Shown here: positions 1 through 48,983 of the stretch, in pieces
How the letters are laid out: each line of letters starts with the position of its first letter
Numbering within the stretch: position 1 is the first letter of the stretch
Source of the DNA: Eledone cirrhosa
Lineage: Eukaryota
Length of the DNA stretch: 64,000 nt
Reading direction: 5' to 3'
Assembly: GCA_964016885.1 (NCBI GenBank)
Contig: OZ024743.1
Coordinates: forward strand, 307,706,001 to 307,770,000
Notes under the pieces: model-generated
What the model was told of the DNA's origin: nothing
Database searches by the model: none
What the model saw: the letters and a program-made list of their open reading frames with translations, nothing else
Made by a program: the position numbers and the translations under genes

Positions 1-3000
1 CTGTAAAGGTTTGAAAGATAGGAGGCGAGTATGCCTTGCTGGATGTGTAAAGTTTGTGTCTGTAAAGGTTTGAAAGATAGGAGGTGAGCATGCCTTGCTG
101 GATGTGTAAAGTTTGTGTCTGTAAAGGTTTGAAAGATAGGAGGTGAGCATGCCTTGATGGATGTGTAAAGTTTGTGTCTGTAAAGGTTTGAAAGATAGGA
201 GGTGAGCATGCCTTGCTGGATGTGTAAAGTTTGTGTCTGTAAAGGTTTGAAAGATAGGAGGTGAGCATGCCTTGATGGATGTGTAAAGTTTGTGTCTGTA
301 AAGGTTTGAAAGATAGGAGGTGAGCATGCCTTGCTGGATGTGTAAAGTTTGTGTCTGTAAAGGTTTGAAAGATAGGAGGTGAGCATGCCTTGCTGGATGC
401 GTAAAGTTTGTGTCTGTAAAGGTTTGAAAGATAGGAGGTGAGCATGCCTTGCTGGATGTGTAAAGTTTGTGTCTGTAAAGGTTTGAAAGATATGAGGTGA
501 GCATGCCCTGCTGGATGTGTAAAGTTTGTGTCTGTAAAGGTTTGAAAGATAGGAGGTGAGCATGCCTTGCTAGATGTGTAAAGTTTGTGTCTGTAAAGGT
601 TTGAAAGATAGGAGGTGAACATGCCTTGCTGGGTGTGTAAACTTTGTGTCTGTAAAGGTTTGAAACATAGGAGGTGAGCATGCCCTGCTGGATGTGTAAA
701 GTTTGTGTCTGTAAAGGTTTGAAAGATAGGAGGTGAACATGCCCTGCTGGATGTGTAAAGTTTGTGTCTGTAAAGGTTTGAAAGATAGGAGGTGAGCATG
801 CCCTGCTGGAAGTGTAAAGTGTGTGTCTGTAAAGGTTTGAAAGATAGGAGGTGAGCATGCCTTGCTGGATGTGTAAAGTTTGTCTGTAAAGGTTTGAAAG
901 ATAGGTGAGCATGCCTTGATGGATATGTAAAGTTTGTGTCTGTAAAGGTTTGAAAGATAGGTGAGCATGCCTTGATGGATGTGTAAAGTTTGTGTCTGTA
1001 AAGGTTTGAAAGATAGGAGGTGAGTATGCCCTGCTGGATGTGTAAAGTTTGTGTCTGTAAAGTTTTGAAAGATAGGTGAGCATGCCTTGATGGATGTGTA
1101 AAGTTTGTGTCTGTAAAGGTTTGAAAGATAGGTGAGCATGCCTTGATGGATGTGTAAAGTTTGTGTCTGTAAAGGTTTGAAAGATAGGAGGTCAGCATGC
1201 CTTGCTGGATGTGTAAAGTTTGTGTCTGTAAAGGTTTGAAAGATAGGAGGTGAGCATGCCCTGCTGGATGTGTAAAGTTTGTGTCTGTAAAGGTTTGAAA
1301 GATAGGTGAGCATGCCTTGATGGATGTGTAAAGTTTGTGTCTGTAAAGGTTTGAAAGATAGGTGAGCATGCCTTGATGGATGTGTAAAGTTTGTGTCTGT
1401 AAAGGTTTGAAAGATAGGAGGTCAGCATGCCTTGCTGGATGTGTAAAGTTTGTGTCTGTAAAGGTTTGAAAGATAGGAGGTCAGCATGCCTTGCTGGATG
1501 TGTAAAGTTTGTGTCTGTAAAGGTTTGAAAGATAGGAGGTGAGCATGCCCTGCTGGATGTGTAAAGTTTGTGTCTGTAAAGGTTTGAAAGATAGGTGAGC
1601 ATGCCTTGCTTCATGTGTAAAGTTTGTCTGTAAAGGTTTGAAAGATAGGTGAGCATGCCTTGATGGATGTGTAAAGTTTGTGTCTGTAAAGGTTTGAAAG
1701 ATAGGTGAGCATGCCTTGATGGATGTGTAAAGTTTGTGTCTGTAAAGGTTTGAAAGATAGGAGGTCAGCATGCCTTGCTGGATGTGTAAAGTTTGTGTCT
1801 GTAAAGGTTTGAAAGATAGGAGGTGAGCATGCCCTGCTGGATGTGTAAAGTTTGTGTCTGTAAAGGTTTGAAAGATAGGTGAGCATGCCTTGCTTCATGT
1901 GTAAAGTTTGTCTGTAAAGGTTTGAAAGATAGGTGAGCATGCCTTGATGGATATGTAAAGTTTGTGTCTGTAAAGGTTTGAAAGATAGGTGAGCATGCCT
2001 TGATGGATGTGTAAAGTTTGTGTCTGTAAAGGTTTGAAAGATAGGAGGTGAGTATGCCCTGCTGGATGTGTAAAGTTTGTGTCTGTAAAGTTTTGAAAGA
2101 TAGGTGAGCATGCCTTGATGGATGTGTAAAGTTTGTGTCTGTAAAGGTTTGAAAGATAGGTGAGCATGCCTTGATGGATGTGTAAAGTTTGTGTCTGTAA
2201 AGGTTTGAAAGATAGGAGGTCAGCATGCCTTGCTGGATGTGTAAAGTTTGTGTCTGTAAAGGTTTGAAAGATAGGAGGTGAGCATGCCCTGCTGGATGTG
2301 TAAAGTTTGTGTCTGTAAAGGTTTGAAAGATAGGTGAGCATGCCTTGATGGATGTGTAAAGTTTGTGTCTGTAAAGGTTTGAAAGATAGGTGAGCATGCC
2401 TTGATGGATGTGTAAAGTTTGTGTCTGTAAAGGTTTGAAAGATAGGAGGTGAGCATGCCTTGCTGGATGTGTAAAGTTTGTGTCTGTAAAGGTTTGAAAG
2501 ATAGGTGAGCAAGCCTTGATGGATGTGTAAAGTCTGTGTCTGTAAAGGTTTGAAAGATAGGAGGTGAGCATGCCTTGCTAGATGTGTAAAGTTTGTGTCT
2601 GTAAAGGTTTGAAAGATAGGAGGTGAGTATGCCCTGCTGGATGTGTAAAGTTTGTGTCTGTAAAGGTTTGAAAGATAGGAGGTGAGCTTGCCTTGCTAGA
2701 TGTGTAAAGTTTGTGTCTGTAAAGGTTTGAAAGATAGGAGGTGAACATGCCTTGCTGGATGTGTAAACGTTGTGTCTGTAAAGGTTTGAAAGATAGGAGG
2801 TGAGCATGCCCTGCTGGATGTGTAAAGTTTGTGTCTGTAAAGGTTTGAAAGATAGGAGGTGAGCATGCCCTGCTGGATGTGTAAAGTGTGTGTCTGTAAA
2901 GGTTTGAAAGATAGGTGAGCATGCCTTGCTTCATGTGTAAAGTTTGTCTGTAAAGGTTTGAAAGATAGGTGAGCATGCCTTGATGGATGTGTAAAGTTTG

Positions 3001-6000
3001 TGTCTGTAAAGGTTTGAAAGATAGGTGAGCATGCCTTGATGGATGTGTAAAGTTTGTGTCTGTAAAGGTTTGAAAGATAGGAGGTGAGTATGCCCTGCTG
3101 GATGTGTAAAGTTTGTGTCTGTAAAGGTTTGAAAGATAGGTGAGCATGCCTTGATGGATGTGTAAAGTTTGTGTCTGTAAAGGTTTGAAAGATAGGTGAG
3201 CATGCCTTGATGGATGTGTAAAGTTTGTGTCTGTAAAGGTTTGAAAGATAGGTGAGCAAGCCTTGATGGATGTGTAAAGTTTGTGTCTGTAAAGGTTTGA
3301 AAGATAGGTGAGCATGCCTTGATGGATGTGTAAAGTTTGTGTCTGTAAAGGTTTGAAAGATAGGAGGTGAGCATGCCCTGCTGGATGTGTAAAGTTTGTG
3401 TCTGTAAAGGTTTGAAAGGTAGGTGAGCATGCCTTGATGGATGTGTAAAGTTTGTGTCTGTAAAGGTTTGAAAGATATGAGGTGAGCATGCCCTGCTGGA
3501 TGTGTAAAGTTTGTGTCTGTAAAGGTTTGAAAGATAGGTGAGCATGCCTTGCTTCATGTGTAAAGTTTGTGTCTGTAAAGGTTTGAAAGATAGGAGGTGA
3601 GCATGCCCTGCTGGATGTGTAAAGTTTGCGTCTGTAAAGGTTTGAAAGATAGGAGGTGAGCATGCCTTGCTAGATGTGTAAAGTTTGTGTCTGTAAAGGT
3701 TTGAAAGATAGGAGGTGAACATGCCTTGCTGGATGTGTAAACTTTGTGTCTGTAAAGGTTTGAAAGATAGGAGGTGAGCATGCCCTGCTGGATGTGTAAA
3801 GTTTGTGTCTGTAAAGGTTTGAAAGATAGGAGGTGAGCATGTCCTGCTGGATGTGTAAAGTTTGTGTCTGTAAAGGTTTGAAAGATAGGAGGTGAGCATG
3901 CCTTGATGGTTGTGTAAAGTTTGTGTCTGTAAAGGTTTGAAAGATAGGAGGTGAACATGCCTTGCTGGATGTGTAAAGTTTGTGTCTGTAAAGTTTTGAA
4001 AGATAGGAGGTGAGCATGCCTTGATGGATGTGTAAAGTTTGTGTCTGTAAAGGTTTGAAAGATAGGAGGCGAGTATGCCTTGCTGGATGTGTAAAGTTTG
4101 TGTCTGTAAAGGTTTGAAAGATAGGAGGTGAGCATGCCTTGCTGGATGTGTAAAGTTTGTGTCTGTAAAGGTTTGAAAGATAGGAGGTGAGCATGCCTTG
4201 ATGGATGTGTAAAGTTTGTGTCTGTAAAGGTTTGAAAGATAGGAGGTGAGCATGCCTTGCTGGATGTGTAAAGTTTGTGTCTGTAAAGGTTTGAAAGATA
4301 GGAGGTGAGCATGCCTTGATGGATGTGTAAAGTTTGTGTCTGTAAAGGTTTGAAAGATAGGAGGTGAGCATGCCTTGCTGGATGTGTAAAGTTTGTGTCT
4401 GTAAAGGTTTGAAAGATAGGAGGTGAGCATGCCTTGCTGGATGCGTAAAGTTTGTGTCTGTAAAGGTTTGAAAGATAGGAGGTGAGCATGCCTTGCTGGA
4501 TGTGTAAAGTTTGTGTCTGTAAAGGTTTGAAAGATATGAGGTGAGCATGCCCTGCTGGATGTGTAAAGTTTGTGTCTGTAAAGGTTTGAAAGATAGGAGG
4601 TGAGCATGCCTTGCTAGATGTGTAAAGTTTGTGTCTGTAAAGGTTTGAAAGATAGGAGGTGAACATGCCTTGCTGGGTGTGTAAACTTTGTGTCTGTAAA
4701 GGTTTGAAAGATAGGAGGTGAGCATGCCCTGCTGGATGTGTAAAGTTTGTGTCTGTAAAGGTTTGAAAGATAGGAGGTGAACATGCCCTGCTGGATGTGT
4801 AAAGTTTGTGTCTGTAAAGGTTTGAAAGATAGGAGGTGAGCATGCCCTGCTGGAAGTGTAAAGTGTGTGTCTGTAAAGGTTTGAAAGATAGGAGGTGAGC
4901 ATGCCTTGCTGGATGTGTAAAGTTTGTCTGTAAAGGTTTGAAAGATAGGTGAGCATGCCTTGATGGATATGTAAAGTTTGTGTCTGTAAAGGTTTGAAAG
5001 ATAGGTGAGCATGCCTTGATGGATGTGTAAAGTTTGTGTCTGTAAAGGTTTGAAAGATAGGAGGTGAGTATGCCCTGCTGGATGTGTAAAGTTTGTGTCT
5101 GTAAAGTTTTGAAAGATAGGTGAGCATGCCTTGATGGATGTGTAAAGTTTGTGTCTGTAAAGGTTTGAAAGATAGGTGAGCATGCCTTGATGGATGTGTA
5201 AAGTTTGTGTCTGTAAAGGTTTGAAAGATAGGAGGTCAGCATGCCTTGCTGGATGTGTAAAGTTTGTGTCTGTAAAGGTTTGAAAGATAGGAGGTGAGCA
5301 TGCCCTGCTGGATGTGTAAAGTTTGTGTCTGTAAAGGTTTGAAAGATAGGTGAGCATGCCTTGATGGATGTGTAAAGTTTGTGTCTGTAAAGGTTTGAAA
5401 GATAGGTGAGCATGCCTTGATGGATGTGTAAAGTTTGTGTCTGTAAAGGTTTGAAAGATAGGAGGTCAGCATGCCTTGCTGGATGTGTAAAGTTTGTGTC
5501 TGTAAAGGTTTGAAAGATAGGAGGTCAGCATGCCTTGCTGGATGTGTAAAGTTTGTGTCTGTAAAGGTTTGAAAGATAGGAGGTGAGCATGCCCTGCTGG
5601 ATGTGTAAAGTTTGTGTCTGTAAAGGTTTGAAAGATAGGTGAGCATGCCTTGCTTCATGTGTAAAGTTTGTCTGTAAAGGTTTGAAAGATAGGTGAGCAT
5701 GCCTTGATGGATGTGTAAAGTTTGTGTCTGTAAAGGTTTGAAAGATAGGTGAGCATGCCTTGATGGATGTGTAAAGTTTGTGTCTGTAAAGGTTTGAAAG
5801 ATAGGAGGTCAGCATGCCTTGCTGGATGTGTAAAGTTTGTGTCTGTAAAGGTTTGAAAGATAGGAGGTGAGCATGCCCTGCTGGATGTGTAAAGTTTGTG
5901 TCTGTAAAGGTTTGAAAGATAGGTGAGCATGCCTTGCTTCATGTGTAAAGTTTGTCTGTAAAGGTTTGAAAGATAGGTGAGCATGCCTTGATGGATATGT

Positions 6001-9000
6001 AAAGTTTGTGTCTGTAAAGGTTTGAAAGATAGGTGAGCATGCCTTGATGGATGTGTAAAGTTTGTGTCTGTAAAGGTTTGAAAGATAGGAGGTGAGTATG
6101 CCCTGCTGGATGTGTAAAGTTTGTGTCTGTAAAGTTTTGAAAGATAGGTGAGCATGCCTTGATGGATGTGTAAAGTTTGTGTCTGTAAAGGTTTGAAAGA
6201 TAGGTGAGCATGCCTTGATGGATGTGTAAAGTTTGTGTCTGTAAAGGTTTGAAAGATAGGAGGTCAGCATGCCTTGCTGGATGTGTAAAGTTTGTGTCTG
6301 TAAAGGTTTGAAAGATAGGAGGTGAGCATGCCCTGCTGGATGTGTAAAGTTTGTGTCTGTAAAGGTTTGAAAGATAGGTGAGCATGCCTTGATGGATGTG
6401 TAAAGTTTGTGTCTGTAAAGGTTTGAAAGATAGGTGAGCATGCCTTGATGGATGTGTAAAGTTTGTGTCTGTAAAGGTTTGAAAGATAGGAGGTGAGCAT
6501 GCCTTGCTGGATGTGTAAAGTTTGTGTCTGTAAAGGTTTGAAAGATAGGTGAGCAAGCCTTGATGGATGTGTAAAGTCTGTGTCTGTAAAGGTTTGAAAG
6601 ATAGGAGGTGAGCATGCCTTGCTAGATGTGTAAAGTTTGTGTCTGTAAAGGTTTGAAAGATAGGAGGTGAGTATGCCCTGCTGGATGTGTAAAGTTTGTG
6701 TCTGTAAAGGTTTGAAAGATAGGAGGTGAGCTTGCCTTGCTAGATGTGTAAAGTTTGTGTCTGTAAAGGTTTGAAAGATAGGAGGTGAACATGCCTTGCT
6801 GGATGTGTAAACGTTGTGTCTGTAAAGGTTTGAAAGATAGGAGGTGAGCATGCCCTGCTGGATGTGTAAAGTTTGTGTCTGTAAAGGTTTGAAAGATAGG
6901 AGGTGAGCATGCCCTGCTGGATGTGTAAAGTGTGTGTCTGTAAAGGTTTGAAAGATAGGTGAGCATGCCTTGCTTCATGTGTAAAGTTTGTCTGTAAAGG
7001 TTTGAAAGATAGGTGAGCATGCCTTGATGGATGTGTAAAGTTTGTGTCTGTAAAGGTTTGAAAGATAGGTGAGCATGCCTTGATGGATGTGTAAAGTTTG
7101 TGTCTGTAAAGGTTTGAAAGATAGGAGGTGAGTATGCCCTGCTGGATGTGTAAAGTTTGTGTCTGTAAAGGTTTGAAAGATAGGTGAGCATGCCTTGATG
7201 GATGTGTAAAGTTTGTGTCTGTAAAGGTTTGAAAGATAGGTGAGCATGCCTTGATGGATGTGTAAAGTTTGTGTCTGTAAAGGTTTGAAAGATAGGTGAG
7301 CAAGCCTTGATGGATGTGTAAAGTTTGTGTCTGTAAAGGTTTGAAAGATAGGTGAGCATGCCTTGATGGATGTGTAAAGTTTGTGTCTGTAAAGGTTTGA
7401 AAGATAGGAGGTGAGCATGCCCTGCTGGATGTGTAAAGTTTGTGTCTGTAAAGGTTTGAAAGGTAGGTGAGCATGCCTTGATGGATGTGTAAAGTTTGTG
7501 TCTGTAAAGGTTTGAAAGATATGAGGTGAGCATGCCCTGCTGGATGTGTAAAGTTTGTGTCTGTAAAGGTTTGAAAGATAGGTGAGCATGCCTTGCTTCA
7601 TGTGTAAAGTTTGTGTCTGTAAAGGTTTGAAAGATAGGAGGTGAGCATGCCCTGCTGGATGTGTAAAGTTTGCGTCTGTAAAGGTTTGAAAGATAGGAGG
7701 TGAGCATGCCTTGCTAGATGTGTAAAGTTTGTGTCTGTAAAGGTTTGAAAGATAGGAGGTGAACATGCCTTGCTGGATGTGTAAACTTTGTGTCTGTAAA
7801 GGTTTGAAAGATAGGAGGTGAGCATGCCCTGCTGGATGTGTAAAGTTTGTGTCTGTAAAGGTTTGAAAGATAGGAGGTGAGCATGCCCTGCTGGATGTGT
7901 AAAGTTTGTGTCTGTAAATGTTTGAAAGATAGGTGAGCATGCCTTGCTTCATGTGTAAAGTTTGTGTCTGTAAAGGTTTGAAAGGTAGGAGGTGAGCATG
8001 CCCTGCTGGATGTGTAAAGTTTGTGTCTCTAAAGGTTTGAAAGATAGGTGAGCATGCCTTGATGGATGTGTAAAGTTTGTGTCTGTAAAGGTTTGAAAGA
8101 TAGGTGAGCATGCCTTGATGGATGTGTAAAGTTTGTGTCTGTAAAGGTTTGAAAGATAGGAGGTGAGTATGCCCTGCTGGATGTGTAAAGTTTGTGTCTG
8201 TAAAGGTTTGAAAGATAGGAGGTGAGCATGCCTTGCTAGATGTGTAAAGTTTGTGTCTGTAAAGGTTTGAAAGATAGGTGAGCATGCCTTGATGGATGTG
8301 TAAAGTTTGTGTCTGTAAAGGTTTGAAAGATAGGTGAGCATGCCTTGATGGATGTGTAAAGTTTGTGTCTGTAAAGGTTTGAAAGATAGGAGGTGAGTAT
8401 GCCCTGCTGGATGTGTAAAGTTTGTGTCTGTAAAGGTTTGAAAGAAAGGAGGTGAGCATGCCTTGCTAGATGTGTAAAGTTTGTGTCTGTAAAGGTTTGA
8501 AAGATAGGAGGTGAACATGCCTTGCTGGATGTGTAAACTTTGTGTCTGTAAAGGTTTGAAAGATAGGAGGTGAGCATGCCCTGCTGGATGTGTAAAGTTT
8601 GTGTCTGTAAAGGTTTGAAAGATAGGAGGTGAACATGCCCTGCTGGATGTGTAAAGTTTGTGTCTGTAAAGGTTTGAAAGATAGGAGGTGAGCATGCCCT
8701 GCTGGATGTGTAAAGTGTGTGTCTGTAAAGGTTTGAAAGATAGGTGAGCATGCCTTGCTTCATGTGTAAAGTTTGTCTGTAAAGGTTTGAAAGATAGGTG
8801 AGCATGCCTTGATGGATGTGTAATGTTTGTGTCTGTAAAGGTTTGAAAGATAGGAGGTGAGCATGCCTTGCTGGATGTGTAAAGTTTGTGTCTGTAAAGG
8901 TTTGAAAGATAGGTGAGCATGCCTTGCTGGATGTGTAAACGTTGTGTCTGTAAAGGCTTGAAAGATAGGAGGTGAGCATGCCTTGCTGGATGTGTAAAGT

Positions 9001-12000
9001 TTGTGTCTGTAAAGGTTTGAAAGATAGGTGAGCATGCCCTGCTGGATGTGTAAAGTGTGTGTCTGTAAAGGTTTGAAAGATAGGTCAGCATGCCCTGCTG
9101 GATGTGTAAAGTTTGTGTCTGTAAAGGTTTGAAAGATAGGTGAGCATGCCTTGATGGATGTGTAAAGTTTGTGTCTGTAAAGGTTTGAAAGATAGGTGAG
9201 CATGCCTTGATGGATGTGTAAAGTTTGTGTCTGTAAAGGTTTGAAAGATAGGAGGTCAGCATGCCTTGCTGGATGTGTAAAGTTTGTGTCTGTAAAGGTT
9301 TGAAAGATAGGTGAGCAAGCCTTGATGGATGTGTAAAGTTTGTGTCTGTAAAGGTTTGAAAGATAGGAGGTGAGCATGCCCTGCTGGATGTGTAAAGTTT
9401 GTGTCTGTAAAGGTTTGAAAGATAGGAGGTGAGCATGTCCTGCTGGATGTGTAAAGTTTGTGTCTGTAAAGGTTTGAAAGATAGGAGGTGAACATGCCTT
9501 GCTGGATGTGTAAAGTTTGTGTCTGTAAAGTTTTGAAAGATAGGAGGTGAGCATGCCTTGATGGATGTGTAAAGTTTGTGTCTGTAAAGGTTTGAAAGAT
9601 AGGAGGCGAGCATGCCTTGCTGGATGTGTAAAGTTTGTGTCTGTAAAGGTTTGAAAGATAGGAGGTGAGCATGCCTTGCTGGATGTGTAAACTTCGTGTC
9701 TGTAAAGGTTTGAAAGATAGGAGGTGAGCATGCCTTGATGGATGTGTAAAGTTTGTGTCTGTAAAGGTTTGAAAGATAGGAGGTGAGCATGCCTTGCTGG
9801 ATGTGTAAAGTTTGTGTCTGTAAAGGTTTGAAAGATAGGAGGTGAGCATGCCTTGATGGATGTGTAAAGTTTGTGTCTGTAAAGGTTTGAAAGATATGAG
9901 GTGAGCATGCCCTGCTGGATGTGTAAAGTTTGTGTCTGTAAAGGTTTGAAAGATAGGTGAGCATGCCTTGCTGGATGTGTAAAGTTTGTGTCTGTAAAGG
10001 TTTGAAAGATAGGAGGTGAGCATGCCCTGCTGGATGTGTAAAGTTTGTGTCTGTAAAGGTTTGAAAGATAGGAGGTGAGCATGCCTTGCTGGATGTGTAA
10101 AGTTTGTGTCTGTAACGGTTTGAAAGATAGGTGAGCATGCCCTGCTGGATGTGTAAAGTTTGTGTCTGTAAAGGTTTGAAAGATAGGAGGTGAGCATGCC
10201 CTGCTGGATGTGTAAAGTTTGTGTCTGTAAAGGTTTGAAAGATAGGAGGTGAGCATGTCCTGCTGGATGTGTAAAGTTTGTGTCTGTAAAGGTTTGAAAG
10301 ATAGGAGGTGAGCATGTCCTGCTGGATGTGTAAAGTTTGTGTCGGTAAAGGTTTGAAAGATAGGTGAGCATGCCTTGCTGGATGTGTAAAGTTTGTGTCT
10401 GTAAAGGTTTGAAAGATAGGAGGTGAGCATGCCTTGATGGATGTGTAATGTTTGTGTCTGTAAAGGTTTGAAAGATAGGAGGTGAGCATGCCTTGCTGGA
10501 TGTGTAAAGTTTGTGTCTGTCAAGGTTTGAAAGATAGGAGGTGAGCATGCCTTGATGGATGTGTAATGTTTGTGTCTGTAAAGGTTTGAAAGATAGGAGG
10601 TGAGCATGCCTTGCTGGATGTGTAAAGTTTGTGTCTGTCAAGGTTTGAAAGATAGGAGGTGAGCATGCCTTGATGGATGTGTAATGTTTGTGTCTGTAAA
10701 GGTTTGAAAGATAGGAGGTGAGCATGCCTTGCTGGATGTGTAAAGTTTGTGTCTGTAAAGGTTTGAAAGATAGGAGGTGAGCATGCCTTGCTGGATGTGT
10801 AAAGTTTGTGTCTGTAAAGGTTTGAAAGATAGGATGTGAGCATGCCTTGCTGGATGTCTAAAGTTTGTGTCTGTAAAGGTTTGAAAGATAGGTGGTGAGC
10901 ATGCCTTGCTGGATGTGTAAAGTTTGTGTCTGTAAAGGTTTGAAAAATATGAGGTGAGCATGCCCTGCTGGATGTGTAAAGTTTGTGTCTGTAAAGGTTT
11001 GAAAGATAGGAGGTGAGCATGCCCTGCTGGATGTGTAAAGTTTGTGTCTGTAAAGGTTTGAAAGATAGGAGTTGAGCATGCCCTGCTGGATGTGTAAAGT
11101 TTGTGTCTGTAAATGTTTGAAAGATAGGTGAGCATGCCTTGCTTCATGTGTAAAGTTTGTGTCTGTAAAGGTTTGAAAGGTAGGAGGTGAGCATGCCCTG
11201 CTGGATGTGTAAAGTTTGTGTCTGTAAAGGTTTGAAAGATAGGAGGTGAGCATGCCTTGCTAGATGTGTAAAGTTTGTGTCTGTAAAGGTTTGAAAGATA
11301 GGAGGTGAGCATGCCTTGCTGGATGTGTAAAGTTTGTGTCTGTAAAGGTTTGAAAGATAGGAGGTGAGCATGCCTTGCTGGATGTGTAAAGTTTGTGTCT
11401 GTAAAGGTTTGAAAGATAGGAGGTGAGCATGCCCTGCTGGATGTGTAAAGTTTGTGTCTGTAAAGGTTTGAAAGATAGGAGGTGAGCATGCCCTGCTGGA
11501 TGTGTAAAGTGTGTGTCTGTAAAGGTTTGAAAGATAGGTGAGCATGCCTTGCTTCATGTGTAAAGTTTGTCTGTAAAGGTTTGAAAGATAGGTGAGCATG
11601 CCTTGATGGATGTGTAATGTTTGTGTCTGTAAAGGTTTGAATGATAGGTGAGCATGCCTTGATGGATATGTAAAGTTTGTGTCTGTAAAGGTTTGAAAGA
11701 TAGGAGGTGAGTATGCCCTGCTGGATGTGTAAAGTTTGTGTCTGTAAAGGTTTGAAAGATAGGTGAGCATGCCTTGATGGATGTGTAAAGTTTGTGTCTG
11801 TAAAGGTTTGAAAGATAGGTGAGCATGCCTTGATGGATGTGTAAAGTTTGTGTCTGTAAAGGTTTGAAAGATAGGTGAGCATGCCTTGATGGATGTGGAA
11901 AGTTTGTGTCTGTAAAGGTTTGAAAGATAGGAGGTGAGCATGCCCTGCTGGATGTGTAAAGTTTGTGTCTGTAAAGGTTTGAAAGATAGGTGAGCATGCC

Positions 12001-33000: not shown

Positions 33001-36000
33001 GAAAGATAGGAGGTGAGCATGCCTTGATGGTTGTGTAAAGTTTGTGTCTGTAAAGGTTTGAAAGATAGGAGGTGAACATGCCTTGCTGGATGTGTAAAGT
33101 TTGTGTCTGTAAAGTTTTGAAAGATAGGAGGTGAGCATGCCTTGATGGATGTGTAAAGTTTGTGTCTGTAAAGGTTTGAAAGATAGGAGGCGAGTATGCC
33201 TTGCTGGATGTGTAAAGTTTGTGTCTGTAAAGGTTTGAAAGATAGGAGGTGAGCATGCCTTGCTGGATGTGTAAAGTTTGTGTCTGTAAAGGTTTGAAAG
33301 ATAGGAGGTGAGCATGCCTTGATGGATGTGTAAAGTTTGTGTCTGTAAAGGTTTGAAAGATAGGAGGTGAGCATGCCTTGCTGGATGTGTAAAGTTTGTG
33401 TCTGTAAAGGTTTGAAAGATAGGAGGTGAGCATGCCTTGATGGATGTGTAAAGTTTGTGTCTGTAAAGGTTTGAAAGATAGGAGGTGAGCATGCCTTGCT
33501 GGATGTGTAAAGTTTGTGTCTGTAAAGGTTTGAAAGATAGGAGGTGAGCATGCCTTGCTGGATGCGTAAAGTTTGTGTCTGTAAAGGTTTGAAAGATAGG
33601 AGGTGAGCATGCCTTGCTGGATGTGTAAAGTTTGTGTCTGTAAAGGTTTGAAAGATATGAGGTGAGCATGCCCTGCTGGATGTGTAAAGTTTGTGTCTGT
33701 AAAGGTTTGAAAGATAGGTGAGCATGCCTTGCTGGATGTGTAAAGTTTGTGTCTGTAAAGGTTTGAAAGATAGGAGGTGAGCATGCCCTGCTGGATGTGT
33801 AAAGTTTGTGTCTGTAAAGGTTTGAAAGATAGGAGGTGAGCATGCCTTGCTGGATGTGTAAAGTTTGTGTCTGTAACGGTTTGAAAGATAGGTGAGCATG
33901 CCCTGCTGGATGTGTAAAGTTTGTGTCTGTAAAGGTTTGAAAGATAGGTGAGCATGCTCTGCTGGATGTGTAAAGTTTGTGTCTGTAAAGGTTTTAAAGA
34001 TAGGTGAGCATACCTTGCTGGATGTGTAAAGTTTGTGTCTGTAAAGGTTTGAAAGATAGGAGGTGAGCATGCCTTGCTGGATGTGTAAAGTTTGTGTCTG
34101 TAAAGGTTTGAAAGATAGGTGAGCATGCCTTGCTGGATGTGTAAAGTTTGTGTCTGTAAAGGTTTGAAAGATAGGAGGTGAGCATGCCCTGCTGGATGTG
34201 TAAAGTTTGTGTCTGTAAATGTTTGAAAGATAGGTGAGCATGCCTTGCTGGATGTGTAAAGTTTGTGTCTGTAAAGGTTTGAAAGATAGGAGGTGAGCAT
34301 GCCCTGCTGGATGTGTAAAGTTTGTGTCTGTAAAGGTTTGAAAGATAGGAGGTGAGCATGCCCTGCTGGATGTGTAAAGTTTGTGTCTGTAAAGGTTTGA
34401 AAGATAGGAGGTGAGCATGTCCTGCTGGATGTGTAAAGTTTGTGTCTGTAAAGGTTTGAAAGATAGGAGGTGAGCATGTCCTGCTGGATGTGTAAAGTTT
34501 GTGTCGGTAAAGGTTTGAAAGATAGGTGAGCATGCCTTGCTGGATGTGTAAAGTTTGTGTCTGTAAAGGTTTGAAAGATAGGAGGTGAGCATGCCTTGCT
34601 GGATGTGTAAAGTTTGTGTCTGTCAAGGTTTGAAAGATAGGAGGTGAGCATGCCTTGATGGATGTGTAATGTTTGTGTCTGTAAAGGTTTGAAAGATAGG
34701 AGGTGAGCATGCCTTGCTGGATGTGTAAAGTTTGTGTCTGTCAAGGTTTGAAAGATAGGAGGTGAGCATGCCTTGATGGATGTGTAATGTTTGTGTCTGT
34801 AAAGGTTTGAAAGATAGGAGGTGAGCATGCCTTGCTGGATGTGTAAAGTTTGTGTCTGTCAAGGTTTGAAAGATAGGAGGTGAGCATGCCTTGATGGATG
34901 TGTAATGTTTGTGTCTGTAAAGGTTTGAAAGATAGGAGGTGAGCATGCCTTGCTGGATGTGTAAAGTTTGTGTCTGTAAAGGTTTGAAAGATAGGAGGTG
35001 AGCATGCCGTGCTGGATGTGTAAAGTTTGTGTCTGTAAAGGTTTGAAAGATAGGATGTGAGCATGCCTTGCTGGATGTCTAAAGTTTGTGTCTGTAAAGA
35101 TTTGAAAGATAGGTGGTGAGCATGCCTTGCTGGATGTGTAAAGTTTGTGTCTGTAAAGGTTTGAAAGATATGAGGTGAGCATGCCCTGCTGGATGTGTAA
35201 AGTTTGTGTCTGTAAAGGTTTGAAAGATAGGAGGTGAGCATGCCCTGCTGGATGTGTAAAGTTTGTGTCTGTAAATGTTTGAAAGATAGGTGAGCATGCC
35301 TTGCTTCATGTGTAAAGTTTGTGTCTGTAAAGGTTTGAAAGGTAGGAGGTGAGCATGCCCTGCTGGATGTGTAAAGTTTGTGTCTGTAAAGGTTTGAAAG
35401 ATAGGAGGTGAGCATGCCTTGCTAGATGTGTAAAGTTTGTGTCTGTAAAGGTTTGAAAGATAGGAGGTGAGCATGCCTTGCTGGATGTGTAAAGTTTGTG
35501 TCTGTAAAGGTTTGAAAGATAGGAGGTGAGCATGCCTTGCTGGATGTGTAAAGTTTGTGTCTGTAAAGGTTTGAAAGATAGGAGGTGAGCATGCCCTGCT
35601 GGATGTGTAAAGTTTGTGTCTGTAAAGGTTTGAAAGATAGGAGGTGAGCATGCCCTGCTGGATGTGTAAAGTGTGTGTCTGTAAAGGTTTGAAAGATAGG
35701 TGAGCATGCCTTGCTTCATGTGTAAAGTTTGTCTGTAAAGGTTTGAAAGATAGGTGAGCATGCCTTGATGGATGTGTAATGTTTGTGTCTGTAAAGGTTT
35801 GAATGATAGGTGAGCATGCCTTGATGGATATGTAAAGTTTGTGTCTGTAAAGGTTTGAAAGATAGGAGGTGAGTATGCCCTGCTGGATGTGTAAAGTTTG
35901 TGTCTGTAAAGGTTTGAAAGATAGGTGAGCATGCCTTGATGGATGTGTAAAGTTTGTGTCTGTAAAGGTTTGAAAGATAGGTGAGCATGCCTTGATGGAT

Positions 36001-39000
36001 GTGTAAAGTTTGTGTCTGTAAAGGTTTGAAAGATAGGAGGTCAGCATGCCTTGCTGGATGTGTAAAGTTTGTGTCTGTAAAGGTTTGAAAGATAGGTGAG
36101 CATGCCTTGATGGATGTGTAAAGTTTGTGTCTGTAAAGGTTTGAAAGATAGGTGAGCATGCCTTGATGGATGTGTAAAGTTTGTGTCTGTAAAGGTTTGA
36201 AAGATAGGAGGTGAGCATGCCCTGCTGGATGTGTAAAGTTTGTGTCTGTAAAGGATTGAAAGATAGGTGAGCATGCCTTGATGGATGTGTAAAGTTTGTG
36301 TCTGTAAAGGTTTGAAAGATAGGTGAGCATGCCTTGATGGATGTGTAAAGTTTGTGTCTGTAAAGGTTTGAAAGATAGGAGGTGAGCATGCCTTGCTGGA
36401 TGTGTAAAGTTTGTGTCTGTAAAGGTTTGAAAGATAGGAGGTGAGCATGCCTTGATGGATGTGTAAAGTTTGTGTCTGTAAAGGTTTGAAAGATAGGAGG
36501 TGAGCATGCCTTGCTGGATGTGTGAAGTTTGTGTCTGTAAAGGTTTGAAAGATAGGAGGTGAGCATGCCTTGCTGGATGTGTAAAGTTTGTGTCTGTAAA
36601 GGTTTGAAAGATAGGAGGTGAGCATGCCTTGCTGGATGTGTAAAGTTTGTGTCTGTAAAGGTTTGAAAGATATGAGGTGAGCATGCCCTGCTGGATGTGT
36701 AAAGTTTGTGTCTGTAAAGGTTTGAAAGATAGGTGAGCATGCCTTGCTGGATGTGTAAAGTTTGTGTCTGTAAAGGTTTGAAAGATAGGAGGTGAGCATG
36801 CCCTGCTGGATGTGTAAAGTTTGTGTCTGTAAAGGTTTGAAAGATAGGAGGTGAGCATGCCTTGCTGGATGTGTAAAGTTTGTGTCTGTAAAGGTTTGAA
36901 AGATAGGTGAGCATGCCTTGTTGGATGTGTAAAGTTTGTGTCTGTAAAGGTTTGAAAGATAGGAGGTGAGCATGCCTTGCTGGATGTGTAAAGTTTGTGT
37001 CTGTAAAGGTTTGAAAGATAGGTGAGCATGCCTTGCTGGATGTGTAAAGTTTGTGTCTGTAAAGGTTTGAAAGATAGGAGGTGAGCATGCCCTGCTGGAT
37101 GTGTAAAGTTTGTGTCTGTAAAGGTTTGAAAGATAGGTGAGCATGCCTTGATGGATGTGTAAAGTTTGTGTCTGTAAAGGTTTGAAAGATAGGTGAGCAT
37201 GCCTTGATGGATGTGTAAAGTTTGTGTCTGTAAAGGTTTGAAAGATAGGAGGTGAGCATGCCTTGCTGGATGTGTAAAGTTTGTGTCTGTAAAGGTTTGA
37301 AAGATAGGAGGTGAGCATCCCTTGATGGATGTGTAAAGTTTGTGTCTGTAAAGGTTTGAAAGGTAGGAGGTGAGCATGCCTTGCTGGATGTGTGAAGTTT
37401 GTGTCTGTAAAGGTTTGAAAGATAGGAGGTGAGCATGCCTTGCTGGATGTGTAAAGTTTGTGTCTGTAAAGGTTTGAAAGATATGAGGTGAGCATGCCTT
37501 GCTGGATGTGTAAAGTTTGTGTCTGTAAAGGTTTGAAAGATATGAGGTGAGCATGCCCTGCTGGATGTGTAAAGTTTGTGTCTGTAAAGGTTTGAAAGAT
37601 AGGTGAGCATGCCTTGCTGGATGTGTAAAGTTTGTGTCTGTAAAGGTTTGAAAGATAGGAGGTGAGCATGCCCTGCTGGATGTGTAAAGTTTGTGTCTGT
37701 AAAGGTTTGAAAGATAGGAGGTGAGCATGCCTTGCTGGATGTGTAAAGTTTGTGTCTGTAAAGGTTTGAAAGATATGAGGTGAGCATGCCATGCTGGATG
37801 TGTAAAATTTGTGTCTGTAAAGGTTTGAAAGATAGGTGAGCATGCCTTGCTGGATGTGTAAAGTTTGTGTCTGTAAAGGTTTGAAAGATAGGAGGTGAGC
37901 ATGCCCTGCTGGATGTGTAAAGTTTGTGTCTGTAAAGGTTTGAAAGATAGGAGGTGAGCATGCCTTGCTGGATGTGTAAAGTTTGTGTCTGTAACGGTTT
38001 GAAAGATAGGTGAGCATGCCCTGCTGGATGTGTAAAGTTTGTGTCTGTAAAGGTTTGAAAGATAGGTGAGCATGCTCTGCTGGATGTGTAAAGTTTGTGA
38101 CTGTAAAGGTTTGAAAGATAGGTGAGCATACCTTGCTGGATGTGTAAAGTTTGTGTCTGTAAAGGTTTGAAAGATAGGAGGTGAGCATGCCTTGCTGGAT
38201 GTGTAAAGTTTGTGTCTGTAAAGGTTTGAAAGATAGGTGAGCATGCCTTGCTGGATGTGTAAAGTTTGTGTCTGTAAAGGTTTGAAAGATAGGAGGTGAG
38301 CATGCCCTGCTGGATGTGTAAAGTTTGTGTCTGTAAAGGTTTGAAAGATAGGTGAGCATGCCTTGCTGGATGTGTAAAGTTTGTGTCTGTAAAGGTTTGA
38401 AAGATGGGAGGTGAGCATGCCCTGCTGGATGTGTAAAGTTTGTGTCTGTAAAGGTTTGAAAGATAGGAGGTGAGCATGCCTTGCTGGATGTGTAATGTTT
38501 GTGTCTGTAAAGGTTTGAAAGATAGGAGGTGAGCATGCCTTGCTGGATGTGTAAAGTTTGTGTCTGTAAAGGTTTGAAAGATAGGATGTGAGCATGCCTT
38601 GCTGGATGTGTAAAGTTTGTGTCTGTAAAGGTTTGAAAGATAGGTGGTGACCATGCCTTGCTGGATGTGTAAAGTTTGTGTCTGTAAAGGTTTGAAAGGT
38701 AGGAGGTGAGCATGCCTTGCTGGATGTGTAAAGTTTGTGTCTGTAAAGGTTTGAAAGATATGAGGTGAGCATTCCCTGCTGGATGTGTAAAGTTTGTGTC
38801 TGTGAAGGTTTGAAAGATATGAGGTGAGCATGCCCTGCTGGATGTGTAAAGTTTGTGTCTGTAAAGGTTTGAAAGATAGGTGAGCATGCCTTGCTTCATG
38901 TGTAAAGTTTGTGTCTGTAAAGGTTTGAAAGATAGGAGGTGAGCATGCCCTGCTGGATGTGTAAAGTTTGTGTCTGTAAAGGTTTGAAAGATAGGAGGTG

Positions 39001-40787
39001 AGCATGCCTTGCTAGATGTGTAAAGTTTGTGTCTGTAAAGGTTTGAAAGATAGGAGGTGAGCATGCCTTGCTGGATGTGTAAAGTTTGTGTCTGTAAAGG
39101 TTTGAAAGATAGGAGGTGAGCATGCCCTGCTGGATGTGTAAAGTTTGTGTCTGTAAAGGTTTGAAAGATAGGAGGTGAGCATGCCCTGCTGGATGTATAA
39201 AGTTTGTGTCTGTAAATGTTTGAAAGATAGGTGAGCATGCCTTGCTTCATGTGTAAAGTTTGTGTCTGTAAAGGTTTGAAAGATAGGAGGTGAGCATGCC
39301 TTGCTGGATGTGTAAAGTTTGTGTCTGTAAAGGTTTGAAAGACAGGAGGTGAGCATGCCTTGCTGGATGTGTAAAGTTTGTGTCTGTAAAGGTTTGAAAG
39401 ATAGGAGGTGAGCATGCCCTGCTGGATGTGTAAAGTTTGTGTCTGTAAAGGTTTGAAAGACAGGAGGTGAGCATGCCTTGCTGGATGTGTAAAGTTTGTG
39501 TCTGTAAAGGTTTGAAAGACAGGAGGTGAGCATGCCTTGCTGGACGTGTAAAGTTTGTGTCTGTAAAGGTTTGAAAGATAGGAGGTGAGCATGCTCTGCT
39601 GGATGTGTAAAGTGTGTGTCTGTAAAGGTTTGAAAGATAGGAGGTGAGCATGTCCTGTTGGATGTGTAAAGTTTGTGTCTGTAAATGTTTGAAAGATAGG
39701 AGGTGAGCATGTCCTGCTGGATGTGTAAAGTTTGTGTCGGTAAAGGTTTGAAAGATAGGTGAGCATGCCTTGCTGGATGTGTAAAGTTTGTGTCTGTAAA
39801 GGTTTGAAAGATAGGAGGTGAGCATGCCCTGCTGGATGTGTAAAGTTTGTGTCGGTAAAGGTTTGAAAGATAGGTGAGCATGCCTTCCTGGATGTGTAAA
39901 GTTTGTGTCTGTAAAGGTTTGAAAGATAGGAGGTGAGCATGCCCTGCTGGATGTGTAAAGTTTGTGTCTGTAAAGGTTTGAAAGATAGGAGGTGAGCATG
40001 TCCTGCTGGATGTGTAAAGTTTGTGTCGGTAAAGGTTTGAAAGATAGGTGAGCATGCCTTGCTGGATGTGTAAAGTTTGTGTCTGTAAAGGTTTGAAAGA
40101 TAGGAGGTGAGCATGCCCTGCTGGATGTGTAAAGTTTGTGTCTGTAAAGGTTTGAAAGATAGGAGGTGAGCATGTCCTGCTGGATGTGTAAAGTTTGTGT
40201 CTGTAAAGGTTTGAAAGATAGGAGGTGAGCATGTCCTGCTGGATGTGTAAAGTTTGTGTCGGTAAAGGTTTGAAAGATAGGAGGTGAGCATGCCCTGCTG
40301 GATGTGTAAAGTTTGTGTCTGTAAAGGTTTGAAAGATAGGAGGTGAGCATGCCCTGCTGGATGTGTAAAGTTTGTGTCTGTAAAGGTTTGAAAGATAGGA
40401 GGTGAGCATGCCCTGCTGGATGTGTAAAGTTTGTGTCTGTAAAGGTTTGAAAGATAGGAGGTGAGCATGTCCTGCTGGATGTGTAAAGTTTGTGTCTGTA
40501 AAGGTTTGAAAGATAGGAGGTGAGCATGCCCTGCTGGATGTGTAAAGTTTGTGTCTGTAAAGGTTTGAAAGATAGGAGGTGAGCATGTCCTGCTGGATGT
40601 GTAAAGTTTGTGTCGGTAAAGGTTTGAAAGATAGGTGAGCATGCCTTGCTGGATGTGTAAAGTTTGTGTCTGTAAAGGTTTGAAAGATAGGAGGTGAGCA
40701 TGCCTTGCTGGATGTGTAAAGTTTGTGTCTGTAAAGGTTTGAAAGATAGGAGGTGAGCATGCCCTGCTGGATGTGTAAAGTTTGTGT
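1..40787. repeat. Giant tandem satellite/minisatellite array, 59-bp unit (56-bp variant), about 700 copies, open at the left edge
   Basis: Consensus ctgtaaaggtttgaaagatag(gag)gtgagcatgcc(t/c)tg(c/a)tggatgtgtaaagtttgtgt repeats head-to-tail without interruption. Last unit is 40729-40787. Length variants: 59, 56 (3-nt indel), 54/57 (tg deletion), and rare units lacking 15 nt (near 12480, 14848). Most units carry an SphI site (GCATGC). Confidence 0.99.
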
Positions 40788-41110
40788 GCTTAAACAACAC
40801 AGTGCAAATAAGTTGATAAAAAACTGAGTTTAAGGAATCCAATGTGTTTGAAAGGGAATACTGTTCTGGTATAGACATGTGTTGTGTATGGATGATGATA
40901 GTTGGATAAAGAAATGACAAGATATCTTAGTGGTCAGAATCTGCAGAAAAAGTAACCAAAGGAAGACATGGGCAGAAGTGATGAAAGCTGATCTTAAGAT
41001 GTTAGACTTTACAAAAGAGATGATGTAATTACCATACCAAATGGTGATATTCTGTGTCTGAGATGACCTGTCTAACTCATGTAATCATAGAAAAATGATG
41101 TTAAAGATGA
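40729..41110 (+). mobile_element. Degenerate RTE-clade LINE 3' fragment, contiguous with the last satellite unit
   Basis: Decayed translation ...FWYRHVLCMDDDSWIKK...QRKTWAEVMKADLKML... is collinear with the RTE copy at 46830-47360 (MDDDHW...RKTWTKVVKADLKLL). Confidence 0.8.
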
Positions 41111-41225
41111 GACAGTGATCTGCTTCCAGATGTAGAATTCAGATTTATTTTTATATTTACCTCTTTAGTAAACATATAGGTGTGTGGCCTAGGTGAAAGT
41201 GTATGGCTTAGGGTAGTAACAATAC

Positions 41226-41530
41226 ATCATCATCAGTGTTTAACATCCACTTTCCCTGCTAGCAATAATTAGTACTGAAGTGGAGCTACTGACCTCTCAA
41301 ACAGGCCAGGGAGGTCTGCATCTCGCTTATGTACTGTCATATGATCTATCAAGTGCACAGGAGAAGTTGTCATGTCTCTTGACACAAACTGAAGGGTCCC
41401 CCCCACCCTTTGTTTGGTAAGCTTTCTATGGTTGGACGCCCTTCCTATCACCAATCACTTTACAGCATGAACTGGGTGTTTATCATGTAGATCACCAACA
41501 CTAGGGAGGCTGTCATGTCCTTGACACTGA
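41226..41530 (-). mobile_element. Non-autonomous SINE-like repeat with RTE-type 3' tail
   Basis: Begins with (cat)n...ttaacatccactttccctgctagc, the reverse complement of an RTE-like 3' end. Body (agtactgaag...gaagttgtcatg...gaagggtcc) recurs at 42225-42500 and inverted at about 54915-55110. Confidence 0.6.
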
Positions 41531-41710
41531 GAGCCCACATATGTGTTGGTATCCTGTAAGTCTGGCTTTATAAACATTATGATAATTCGTAAATGAAGTT
41601 ATTATGTTTGATATTCAGACAAAATGCATTGTCAAGGCATGTGGCCTAGTAGTTAGTGTGTCAAACTCATGAACATAAGGTCATCTGTTTGAATCCTTGA
41701 GAAAGTTGAG

Positions 41711-41893
41711 GGGCAGTGGATTGGCAGTATCAGTAGAGGGTCGGACGCCATGCTTTGCAGCATAGTTACGGCCCGAGTTCAAATCCCACAGAGGTTAACT
41801 TTGCCTTTCATCCTTACGGGGGTCGATAAAATAAAGTACCAGTAATGCACTAGGATAATTGCTGGCCTTGTGCCAAAAGTAGAAACAATTATT
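41711..41893 (+). mobile_element. tRNA-derived SINE
   Basis: A/B-box-like head (tggcagtatcagtaga...gagttcaaatccc) and core ggttaactttgcctttcatcc...gggtcgataaaataaagtaccag. Closely similar copies at 54033-54222 (+) and 58508-58698 (-). Confidence 0.75.
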
Positions 41894-42090
41894 GAGCAAG
41901 AAACTTCCAATTGTGTTACTTTTCATAATAAGACTCAGGCCCCTATCATTAAAACACCCAAGGAACCTCCTATGATATACAACCTTGTAGGAGGTTAGCT
42001 AAATCTGTATAGGTGTGAGCTATAAATTATATTTCATTTTCTCATCAATTTGTATGGACATCTATTAATTGTGAATGTTTTTTTTTTCAG

Positions 42091-42187
42091 TTGGATGTTG
42101 ATCTTCATGTTGGATCTTTGGATATTTTAATGGCTCCCCGTCAAGTCCATGTCCTCTTAGAGATTCTCTCTTGTTTCACATCATCAG
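42091..42187 (+). CDS. ATG2: ATG2 internal exon (LDVDLHVGSLDILMAPRQVHVLLEILSCFTSS)
   Basis: Acceptor ttttttcag, donor g|gtatgt, phase 0 to 1. Peptide resembles the ATG2 segment LDVDGQIDSIHLLLSPRQVHLLLDML as I recall it from human ATG2B. Confidence 0.88.
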
Positions 42188-43311: not shown

Positions 43312-43491
43312 CTTCCTCAGAATATAGTCCCAGTCGTCTAGCTGCTACTATAAATAAACCAATGAAACAAACAGATTATTTACGTGTTGAACATCAGCTC
43401 CAGAACCATTTACTTTCTAATCGACTGATGCCTCATCTGATCAATATGCCAGATCCTCCTGAAGAAGTACTCATAGGCTCCCATGGACCAG
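43312..43491 (+). CDS. ATG2: ATG2 internal exon (ASSEYSPSRLAATINKPMKQTDYLRVEHQLQ...GSHGP)
   Basis: Acceptor ctatag (alternative in-frame cag ending 43320), donor cag|gtaaat, phase 1 to 1. NKPMKQTDYLRVEHQL resembles ATG2 NRPMQQEDEYRIQMEL. Confidence 0.85.
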
Positions 43492-45586: not shown

Positions 45587-45709
45587 ATGATTTTGTTTCT
45601 GGGGATGAGATGTATTATTCTTTGAAATCCAGTAATAAGAATGTCACACTCGGCTCTGACCTGGAATCTTCAGTTAGCAGCAACACCAGTGAAAAGTCCA
45701 CATCTACAG
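45587..45709 (+). CDS. ATG2: ATG2 internal exon (DDFVSGDEMYYSLKSSNKNVTLGSDLESSVSSNTSEKSTST)
   Basis: Acceptor gtttttcag, donor cag|gttagt, phase 1 to 1, open frame joining the neighbours. DEMYYSL and DLESSVSS resemble ATG2 EEVFFSM and DLELSLTS. Confidence 0.8.
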
Positions 45710-46200
45710 GTTAGTTATGTCTATGATGTTGCTGTTGCTATTGTTGTTACCCTTGACTCTTCAGTTAGCAGCAACACCTGTGAAAAGTCCACATCTACAG
45801 GTTAGTTATGTCTATGATGTTGCTGTTGCTATTGTTGTTACCCTTGACTCTTCAGTTAGCAGCAACACCTGTGAAAAGTCCACATCTACAGGTTAGTTAT
45901 GTCTATGATGTTGCTGTTGCTATTGTTGTTACCCTTGACTCTTCAGTTAGCAGCAACACCTGTGAAAAGTCCACATCTACAGGTTAGTTATGTCTATGAT
46001 GTTGCTGTTGCTATTGTTGTTACCCTTGACTCTTCAGTTAGCAGCAACACCTGTGAAAAGTTCACATCTACAAGTTAGTTATGTCTATGATGTTGCTATT
46101 GTTATTACCCTTGACTCTGACATGTCTTCAGTTAGCAGCAATACCAGTGAAAAGTCCACATCTACAGCTTAGCAATGTGTCTATGATGTTGTTATTGTTG
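45667..46200 (+). repeat. 91-bp tandem repeat (6 copies) spanning the ATG2 exon 3' end and splice donor
   Basis: tcttcagttagcagc starts at 45667, 45758, 45849, 45940, 46031 and 46125. Confidence 0.95.
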
Positions 46201-48929: not shown

Positions 48930-48983
48930 TTTCTAATACAAGCACTGGAAGACCTCGTTCAGGCTACAATCAGAATATGAAAG
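48930..48983 (+). CDS. ATG2: ATG2 small internal exon (VSNTSTGRPRSGYNQNMK)
   Basis: Acceptor tattacag, donor aag|gtaatt, 54 nt, phase 1 to 1, open frame. It is skippable in frame, so support comes from splice signals rather than homology. Confidence 0.65.

What the first reader, a model, noticed from the sequence alone, without database searches (positions are those of the whole stretch)
1..42090. The array probably lies inside an intron of ATG2
Seen: the first ATG2 exon (42091) starts at a splice acceptor with no start codon. No upstream exon is visible in 1-42090. Established: the PRQVH segment lies roughly 300 residues into ATG2, after the chorein_N domain. Inference: the 5' exons are beyond the array, so Pol II must cross more than 40 kb of satellite in a conserved autophagy gene. 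This resembles the satellite-filled giant introns of Drosophila Y fertility genes.
Basis: inference. Interest (0 to 1): 0.7.

Follow-up and report, generated by a model that had tools for sequence, protein, structure and literature searches.

The report
Octopod ATG2 intron swollen by minisatellite
An intact autophagy gene (ATG2) of an octopus-group animal has a 174,000-base intron that is 99% one 59-base repeat, likely grown recently in place from a scrap of a dead jumping gene and likely tolerated rather than useful, since such arrays are common in this genome.

Summary
Confirmed and extended. The 59-bp array runs 131 kb beyond the window: 171,702 bp, about 2,957 units, no gaps. It fills 98.9% of intron 6 (173,631 bp) of a 42-exon, 2,099-codon, stop-free ATG2; both flanking exons are single-copy. 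A spliced 6,868-nt contig from the same species holds both sides, with a gap exactly the 97 nt of exon 7. The unit occurs only here and reads as the start of a decayed LINE ORF2 fragment that continues into the right flank. A relative has the seed at single-copy-like depth, so growth is likely recent. Nearly every unit carries a donor-like motif, but a strand rule did not replicate. The Y-loop analogy holds for architecture only: 6 of 39 evenly spaced 4-kb samples lie wholly in arrays, and this scan noted the same before in VPS15, unc79, LHPP, APLF and others. Closest kind: intronic sequence stuttering, far larger than its 2-3 kb published example. Open: expression of the long allele.

The parts
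1..40787 (+). 3' quarter of the 59-bp minisatellite array (whole array G000:C4:307575086-307746787, 171,702 bp, about 2,957 units, 234 distinct monomers) inside ATG2 intron 6 (C4:307574460-307748090, 173,631 bp)
40729..41023 (+). Last unit plus right flank: decayed fragment of LINE ORF2 (C-terminal part) in the gene's sense direction; the monomer is the fragment's first ~59 bp
   Evidence: 8 of 15 blastn hits to dispersed copies include the unit; local score 120 against a LINE ORF2 frame; maximum 59 in 2,000 shuffles; that frame: RVT_1 and PHD
40788..42090 (+). Non-array 3' part of intron 6 (1,303 bp), ending in a strong acceptor (T-run and AG at 42089-42090; score 13.0 against a median of 8.0 for the gene's acceptors)
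42091..42187 (+). ATG2 coding exon 7 (97 nt, entered in phase 0), single copy in the genome
   Evidence: length equals the gap in the spliced contig
43312..43491 (+). ATG2 exon 8
   Evidence: piece of the spliced contig, 0 other letters
45587..45709 (+). ATG2 exon 9
   Evidence: length fits the contig's coordinates
45660..46191 (+). 91-bp repeat, 5.8 copies, that duplicates the end of exon 9 with its donor ('mirage' or exon stuttering)
48930..48983 (+). ATG2 exon 10
   Evidence: length fits the contig's coordinates
51137..51395 (+). ATG2 exon 11
   Evidence: piece of the spliced contig, 0 other letters
53607..53793 (+). ATG2 exon 12; 30 further exons follow beyond the window to the stop at C4:307880854

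Best explanation
The array fills intron 6 of the single intact ATG2 gene and likely grew there recently, as a tolerated passenger, from the first ~59 bp of a decayed LINE fragment. Shown: intron position, intact frame, a spliced transcript in this species, private unit, LINE homology, growth in blocks (83% of units lie in exact duplicated blocks of 10 or more units; near-identical blocks up to 9 kb). Inferred: a first duplication between two imperfect ~12-bp direct repeats inside the seed, then unequal exchange or gene conversion in kb-size blocks after the split from relative B. Inferred: Pol II transcribes the whole array and exon definition removes the intron in one step, because the sense strand offers about 2,900 donor-like motifs but no acceptor-like site and no AATAAA/ATTAAA, so no cryptic exon or early end can be defined; the cost would be a longer transcription time.
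For: Gene model: 42 exons, 41 of 41 introns GT-AG, 0 internal stops, 30-34% identity end to end with 4 of 7 full-length ATG2 proteins (the other 3 align in two pieces) and 42% with a partial gastropod one. Spliced contig in run X4: exon 6 = record 1005-1202, exon 8 begins at record 1300, gap 97 = exon 7; 0 other letters in the 5 pieces shown. Homologs have the same 15-residue spacing across the junction. Private unit: 446 of 446 and 739 of 739 genome-wide exact hits of two patterns lie in the array. Array real in raw data: run X1 has a 315-nt contig across the left edge with 0 differences and depth 5,909 in the bin holding one unit against 5-11 on unique flanks. Relative B (X5): depth 48.7 in that bin against 15-20 on unique flanks, and one 1,073-nt contig running through the unit position. 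LINE origin. Block duplication (longest run in shuffled order 5 units). Commonness: 6 of 39 samples wholly in an array, 34% tandem cover; 3 of 11 large gaps inside myosin and ABC genes held arrays; 22 of 41 ATG2 introns hold a tandem repeat.
Against: The exon 7 piece itself was not among the rows shown; the junction rests on length arithmetic across two calls. X4 is another sample (S2) of unrecorded kind and may carry or express a shorter allele; contigs cannot show passage through the array. Contig depth is no copy number, so 171.7 kb rests on the assembly; near-identical blocks of 7-9 kb could be mis-counted. The 547 nt that precede the unit in the X5 contig were not shown to match the left flank (no such row, table cut). 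Neutrality is inferred from commonness, not from population data. The splice-site scores come from a matrix of only 41 sites.
Confidence: 0.8

Rival explanations
1. Functional intron gigantism as in Drosophila Y-loop genes: the array delays or gates ATG2 expression, and its donor-like motifs load U1 snRNP to keep transcription going.
For: 2,917 donor-like sites on the sense strand, 23 on the antisense; both common forms score above the real intron-6 donor (7.4 and 6.2 against 5.8) and pair with U1 better than 26-28 of 41 true donors. The first 6 intronic arrays examined had donors on the sense strand in 3 and on the antisense in 0.
Against: A second set of 6 arrays had donors on sense in 0 and on antisense in 2, acceptors on sense in 1 and antisense in 1; 12.5% of random 50-mers from ordinary introns would give a donor in every unit. 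The motif is part of the LINE-derived seed. The array is young and not amplified in relative B. Arrays are common genome-wide.
Confidence: 0.08
2. The long allele is a silent or poorly expressed burden; ATG2 mRNA comes from a second haplotype or from individuals with a short intron.
For: X4 is a different sample from X1-X3; X1 shows a flank variant at about half depth (L020:7161) and the left-edge contig has depth 4.7 against 6-9 on neighbouring contigs.
Against: No frameshift or stop in 42 exons; 0 differences between assembly and transcript in the 5 exon pieces shown; arrays sit in gaps of several other conserved genes, which is hard to reconcile with general silencing.
Confidence: 0.07
3. 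The array exists, but its length is an assembly artefact (over-expanded or mis-joined repeat).
For: Near-identical internal blocks of 6.6-9.0 kb; the sequencing technology is not known here.
Against: No N; 234 monomer types whose frequencies change along the array, longest exact repeat 5.5 kb; both flanks belong to one intron of one gene and the LINE fragment continues across the right edge; several-hundred-fold depth excess in X1.
Confidence: 0.05

Closest known systems
Intronic 'sequence stuttering' of chicken dot-chromosome genes (PMC12954441; read: abstract, section 7 part 1, section 8 part 1, section 9; supplements not seen)
   Same: Locally born units of tens of bases confined to single introns, coding frame intact, many introns of one gene affected (22 of 41), exon edges copied in some introns (exons 3 and 9), not amplified in a relative.
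   Different: Scale: 172 kb against 1.6-2.9 kb for their example intron; an AT-rich 379-Mb octopod chromosome rather than GC-rich dot chromosomes said to lack interspersed repeats; the seed here is a LINE relic; length polymorphism untested.
Drosophila Y-loop genes kl-3 and kl-5 (PMC6508621, abstract and 12 passages; PMC11207136, abstract)
   Same: One intron almost wholly tandem DNA in an intact conserved gene; transcription through the repeat would be needed.
   Different: Theirs: megabases of simple satellite (AATAT, AAGAC), over 99% of the locus, Y-linked, spermatocyte programme, needs Blanks and Heph. Here: 0.17 Mb, 59-bp private unit, 52% of the coding span, a general autophagy gene (role recalled), no evidence of a dedicated programme.
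Amphioxus 'mirage' minisatellites (PMC3087553, 8 passages)
   Same: Matches the small repeats at exons 3 and 9, which duplicate the exon end with its donor; reported not to disturb splicing.
   Different: The giant array starts 626 bp from the donor and does not derive from an exon boundary; thousands of units against 3-6 in their globin example.
Transposon-derived satellite DNA (PMC7004042, PMC9659126; search listing only)
   Same: Monomer traceable to a retroelement.
   Different: Here the seed is a coding (ORF2) piece of one decayed copy that had no repeat of its own, and the array has not spread to other loci.

Membership tests
ATG2 (autophagy-related protein 2) | N-terminal chorein/VPS13_N region and ATG2 C-terminal region in one ~2,000-residue frame | tested here: met
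   Exon 1 hits human ATG2A; exon 2 hits VPS13_N weakly, E 2e-4; PF13329 hits only this locus, 4 matches; the 2,099-aa model aligns end to end with ATG2 proteins
Intronic sequence stuttering (Hron et al.) | Locally expanded repeats of tens to hundreds of bases confined to introns, frame intact | tested here: met
Intronic sequence stuttering (Hron et al.) | Occasional copying of exon edges | tested here: met
   16 proximal hits for exon 3 and 5 for exon 9; single short hits for 5 other exons
Intronic sequence stuttering (Hron et al.) | Extensive length variation within the species | not testable with these tools
Intronic sequence stuttering (Hron et al.) | Tied to GC-rich, small dot-like chromosomes | tested here: not met
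   379-Mb contig; GC mostly 0.3-0.4 around the gene
Drosophila Y-loop intron gigantism | Intron almost wholly tandem DNA in an intact gene | tested here: met
   98.9% of intron 6
Drosophila Y-loop intron gigantism | Megabases of simple satellite making up over 99% of the locus | tested here: not met
   171.7 kb, 59-bp unit, gene span 336 kb
Drosophila Y-loop intron gigantism | Satellite RNA transcribed; germline-timed expression; dedicated RNA-binding proteins | not testable with these tools
   No raw RNA reads available
Recursive (ratchet-point) splicing | AG|GT preceded by a pyrimidine tract inside the intron | tested here: not met
   The 56-bp variant has AG|GT, but 0 acceptor-like sites reach the 10th percentile of true acceptors; best score 1.9; longest pyrimidine run 9. 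The defining feature is recalled.
Transposon-derived satellite | Monomer homologous to a transposable element | tested here: met
   34 of 53 nt and 8 of 18 codons identical to a LINE ORF2 frame, collinear into the flank; score 120 against shuffle maximum 59

The most novel reading that the evidence does not exclude
This octopod runs intron gigantism as a somatic, genome-wide condition: housekeeping genes such as ATG2 carry 100-kb private minisatellites whose length varies between animals and sets gene timing or output, with thousands of decoy donors loading U1 and a dedicated processivity machinery making read-through possible.
Probability: 0.1. Interest if true: 0.75.

Novelty: new variant of a known kind. 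Interest (0 to 1): 0.42.

Why it matters
It is a clean, single-locus case of a 59-bp transposon scrap doubling the length of a conserved gene, with the seed still visible and a relative lacking the expansion. If the long allele is expressed, somatic cells splice accurately past about 2,900 donor look-alikes that score above the real donor, which makes exon definition, the cost of long introns and satellite birth testable by comparing long and short alleles. Within this genome the case is one of many, so the genome-wide process is more interesting than ATG2 itself. Six literature searches showed no paper on such arrays in cephalopod introns or in ATG2; the library lacks most subscription papers.

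Tried and rejected
Truncated duplicate or mis-join: rejected. Dispersed or centromere-type satellite: rejected, all hits at one locus. Fixed higher-order repeat: not seen; no lag stands out except near full length. Recursive splicing in the array: no acceptor-like site. Strand rule (donors on sense, acceptors avoided): suggested by the first 6 arrays, not replicated in 6 more; over 12 arrays donors were on sense in 3 and antisense in 2, acceptors on sense in 1 and antisense in 4, poly(A) hexamers in 0 (chance 8.9% each); gene strand for these was taken from Pfam hits and the gaps were not proven to be single introns. No RNA holder listed; this is no evidence either way. Homolog search with exon 11 found nothing; its PDB search gave one chance hit. 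PF12624 found VPS13-like loci but not ATG2. PF07304 found nothing. Probes near two zf-CCHH hits (0 of 16) and in a VPS13 gap (0 of 3) hit no array. PMC13282606 (Octopus vulgaris repeats) has no occurrence of 'satellite' or 'intron'. Look-ups returned nothing. Runs X6 and X7 gave only short pieces.

Full report
Observation. Window 1-40787 is one tandem array of period 59 with a GC skew of about +0.57. Window 42091 follows a T-run and AG and begins a 97-nt exon with PRQVH and no start codon. The window is G000:C4:307706001-307770000 in a 3.0-Gb genome. The animal is an octopod by inference: a nested gene in the window has its best hits in Octopus bimaculoides (48%) and Argonauta hians (42%).

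Extent of the array. In 200 kb fetched upstream the array continues without N to C4:307575086; it measures 171,702 bp and splits into 2,957 units of 234 types, mostly 59 bp (2,010) and 56 bp (844). Two exact patterns give 446 and 739 hits in the whole genome, all on one strand, and the same numbers are found inside the array. The unit is therefore private to this locus at exact-match level.

The gene. Five exons lie within 8 kb upstream of the array's left edge and the start exon 22.5 kb further; it matches human ATG2A (E 1.7e-8). PF13329 matches only this locus (4 matches, strict first look). Using homologs and hand-set boundaries, the model has 42 coding exons, 6,300 nt, 2,099 residues, no internal stop and GT-AG at 41 of 41 introns; it aligns end to end at 30-34% identity with 4 of 7 full-length homologs, in two pieces with the other 3, and at 42% with a partial gastropod protein. 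Intron 6 is 173,631 bp, phase 0, after codon 332; the next largest is 28,031 bp and the median 1,955 bp. The array fills 98.9% of it, with 626 and 1,303 bp of flank. Exons 6 and 7 each match once in the genome. Exon 6 ends in G-P-K and exon 7 has 15 residues before PRQ, the same spacing as in the homologs printed.

Splicing across the array. Run X4 (same species label, another sample, kind not on record) holds a 6,868-nt contig made of exons only. Exon 5 and exon 6 are record 805-1004 and 1005-1202; window 43310-43488, 51135-51394 and 53606-53793 are record 1298-1476, 1655-1914 and 1915-2102, all 5 pieces with 0 other letters. Exon 8 thus begins at record 1300 and the gap is 97 nt, the length of exon 7; every position fits the model with a 206-nt leader. 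This shows correct splicing in the species; it does not show which allele was transcribed.

Is the array real and recent? In DNA-like run X1, possibly the assembly's own source and so not independent, a 315-nt contig crosses the left edge without a difference, and the bin that holds one unit has depth 5,909 against 5-11 for unique flanks; X5 (organism B) has 48.7, X7 17.5 and X4 14 in that bin. Depth is not a copy number, but the contrast is large. X5 has one 1,073-nt contig that aligns from window 40729 to 41260 with 45 other letters and carries 547 more letters upstream; these were not shown to match the left flank (table cut). Flanks of B differ by roughly 9%, whereas units differ from their commonest form by 1.75 events on average, 83% of units lie in exact duplicated blocks of 10 or more units, and blocks up to 9 kb are 99% identical. 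The longest exact repeat is 5.5 kb. I infer growth by block duplication after the split from B.

Origin of the unit. The last unit and 240 bp of right flank read in one frame as a decayed piece of LINE ORF2: local score 120 against a LINE frame in intron 38, maximum 59 in 2,000 shuffles, and 34 of 53 nt identical over the unit; that frame carries RVT_1 and PHD matches; 8 of 15 blastn hits to dispersed copies include the unit. The label RTE-type is recalled. The left flank shows no continuation of the frame, so the seed is likely the 5' end of a truncated copy. The unit holds two imperfect ~12-bp direct repeats (seen), a plausible handle for the first slippage (inference).

How it is tolerated. 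With matrices built from the gene's own 41 sites, the sense strand has 2,917 donor-like sites at or above the lower quartile of true donors, 0 acceptor-like sites above the 10th percentile and 0 AATAAA or ATTAAA; the antisense strand has 23 donor-like and 2,846 acceptor-like sites; the true acceptor is strong (13.0) and the true donor modest (5.8). Orphan donors without acceptors cannot define exons (established exon-definition logic, recalled), so the array is predicted to be inert. I tested whether this pattern is a rule. The first 6 arrays with a gene strand (ATG2, four in unc79, one in a HAD-IIA gene) looked biased; 6 more from myosin and ABC genes did not, and chance rates for random 50-mers are 12.5% for donors, 22.8% for acceptors and 8.9% for poly(A) hexamers. 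An unchecked note reports sense-strand acceptors in a galectin array. No strand rule is supported.

How ordinary is it? Of 40 evenly chosen 4-kb samples, 39 existed; 6 lie wholly in one tandem array and tandem repeats cover 34% of the sampled bases. Three of 11 large gaps within myosin and ABC genes held arrays (8 of 20 probes). In unc79 and the HAD-IIA gene, chosen because of earlier notes, 16 of 17 probes were array. In ATG2 itself 22 of 41 introns carry a tandem repeat of period 10 or more, and those at exons 3 and 9 copy the exon end with its donor. Earlier unchecked notes describe the same build in VPS15, SRA1, LHPP, unc79, APLF, an ABCB gene and a PKD1-like gene.

Comparison. It works like intronic sequence stuttering in chicken (PMC12954441) and, for the small exon-edge repeats, like amphioxus mirages (PMC3087553), but it is far larger than their examples, sits on a large AT-rich chromosome and has a LINE-derived seed; length polymorphism, a defining feature, is untested, and that paper's supplements were not seen. 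It shares only the architecture with the Drosophila Y-loop genes (PMC6508621; PMC11207136). Searches showed no report of this in cephalopods or ATG2.

Verdict. Best explanation: recent, local, tolerated runaway growth of a LINE-derived minisatellite in a transcribed intron (0.8). A regulatory role (0.08), a silent long allele (0.07) and a wrong length (0.05) remain open. Interest 0.42: a well-supported and striking instance, but one of many in this genome.

Noticed in passing
window 59195-61438 (- strand) and L031:7741-9999 (- strand, 5' open): Two intact single-frame genes for leucine-rich-repeat membrane proteins lie antisense inside ATG2 intron 12; best hits are named 'toll-like receptor 4' in Octopus bimaculoides and Argonauta, but Pfam shows LRRs and no TIR domain.
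   Followed up: partly
window 45660-46191; L020:2673-3249; C4:307831440-307831476: Exon-edge duplications: donors of exons 9 and 3 repeated about 6 and 19 times, and the acceptor of exon 28 duplicated once.
   Followed up: partly
window 51396-52003: A 21-bp AT-rich repeat with higher-order units of 44, 67 and 111 bp begins just after the donor of exon 11 and resembles the donor's own sequence.
   Followed up: no
C4:307805780-307809345 (intron 16): A 24-bp repeat ends 6 bp before the acceptor of exon 17; its motif also occurs just after exon 16, with a decayed retroelement-like insert between them.
   Followed up: no
window 49030-50080: Long inverted arms (about 49060-49300 and 49810-50070) around a CA-rich core, like a non-autonomous DNA transposon (seen).
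   Followed up: no
G000:C3:886075-1200575 (L130-L135): A myosin gene near a contig end has a 314-kb gap between motor-domain hits that holds at least four different arrays (42, 28, 29, 40 bp); the 40-bp unit has acceptor-like sites on the sense strand.
   Followed up: partly
G000:C2:414.33-414.83 Mb (L090-L104): unc79 gaps hold four different arrays (39, 55, 43, 14 bp); the 55-bp one spans at least 240 kb.
   Followed up: partly
window 1-40787: The array is almost free of CpG (0.86 per kb against 12.8 in the other introns), so CpG methylation would have little to act on; four assembled pieces exceed 378 Mb.
   Followed up: no
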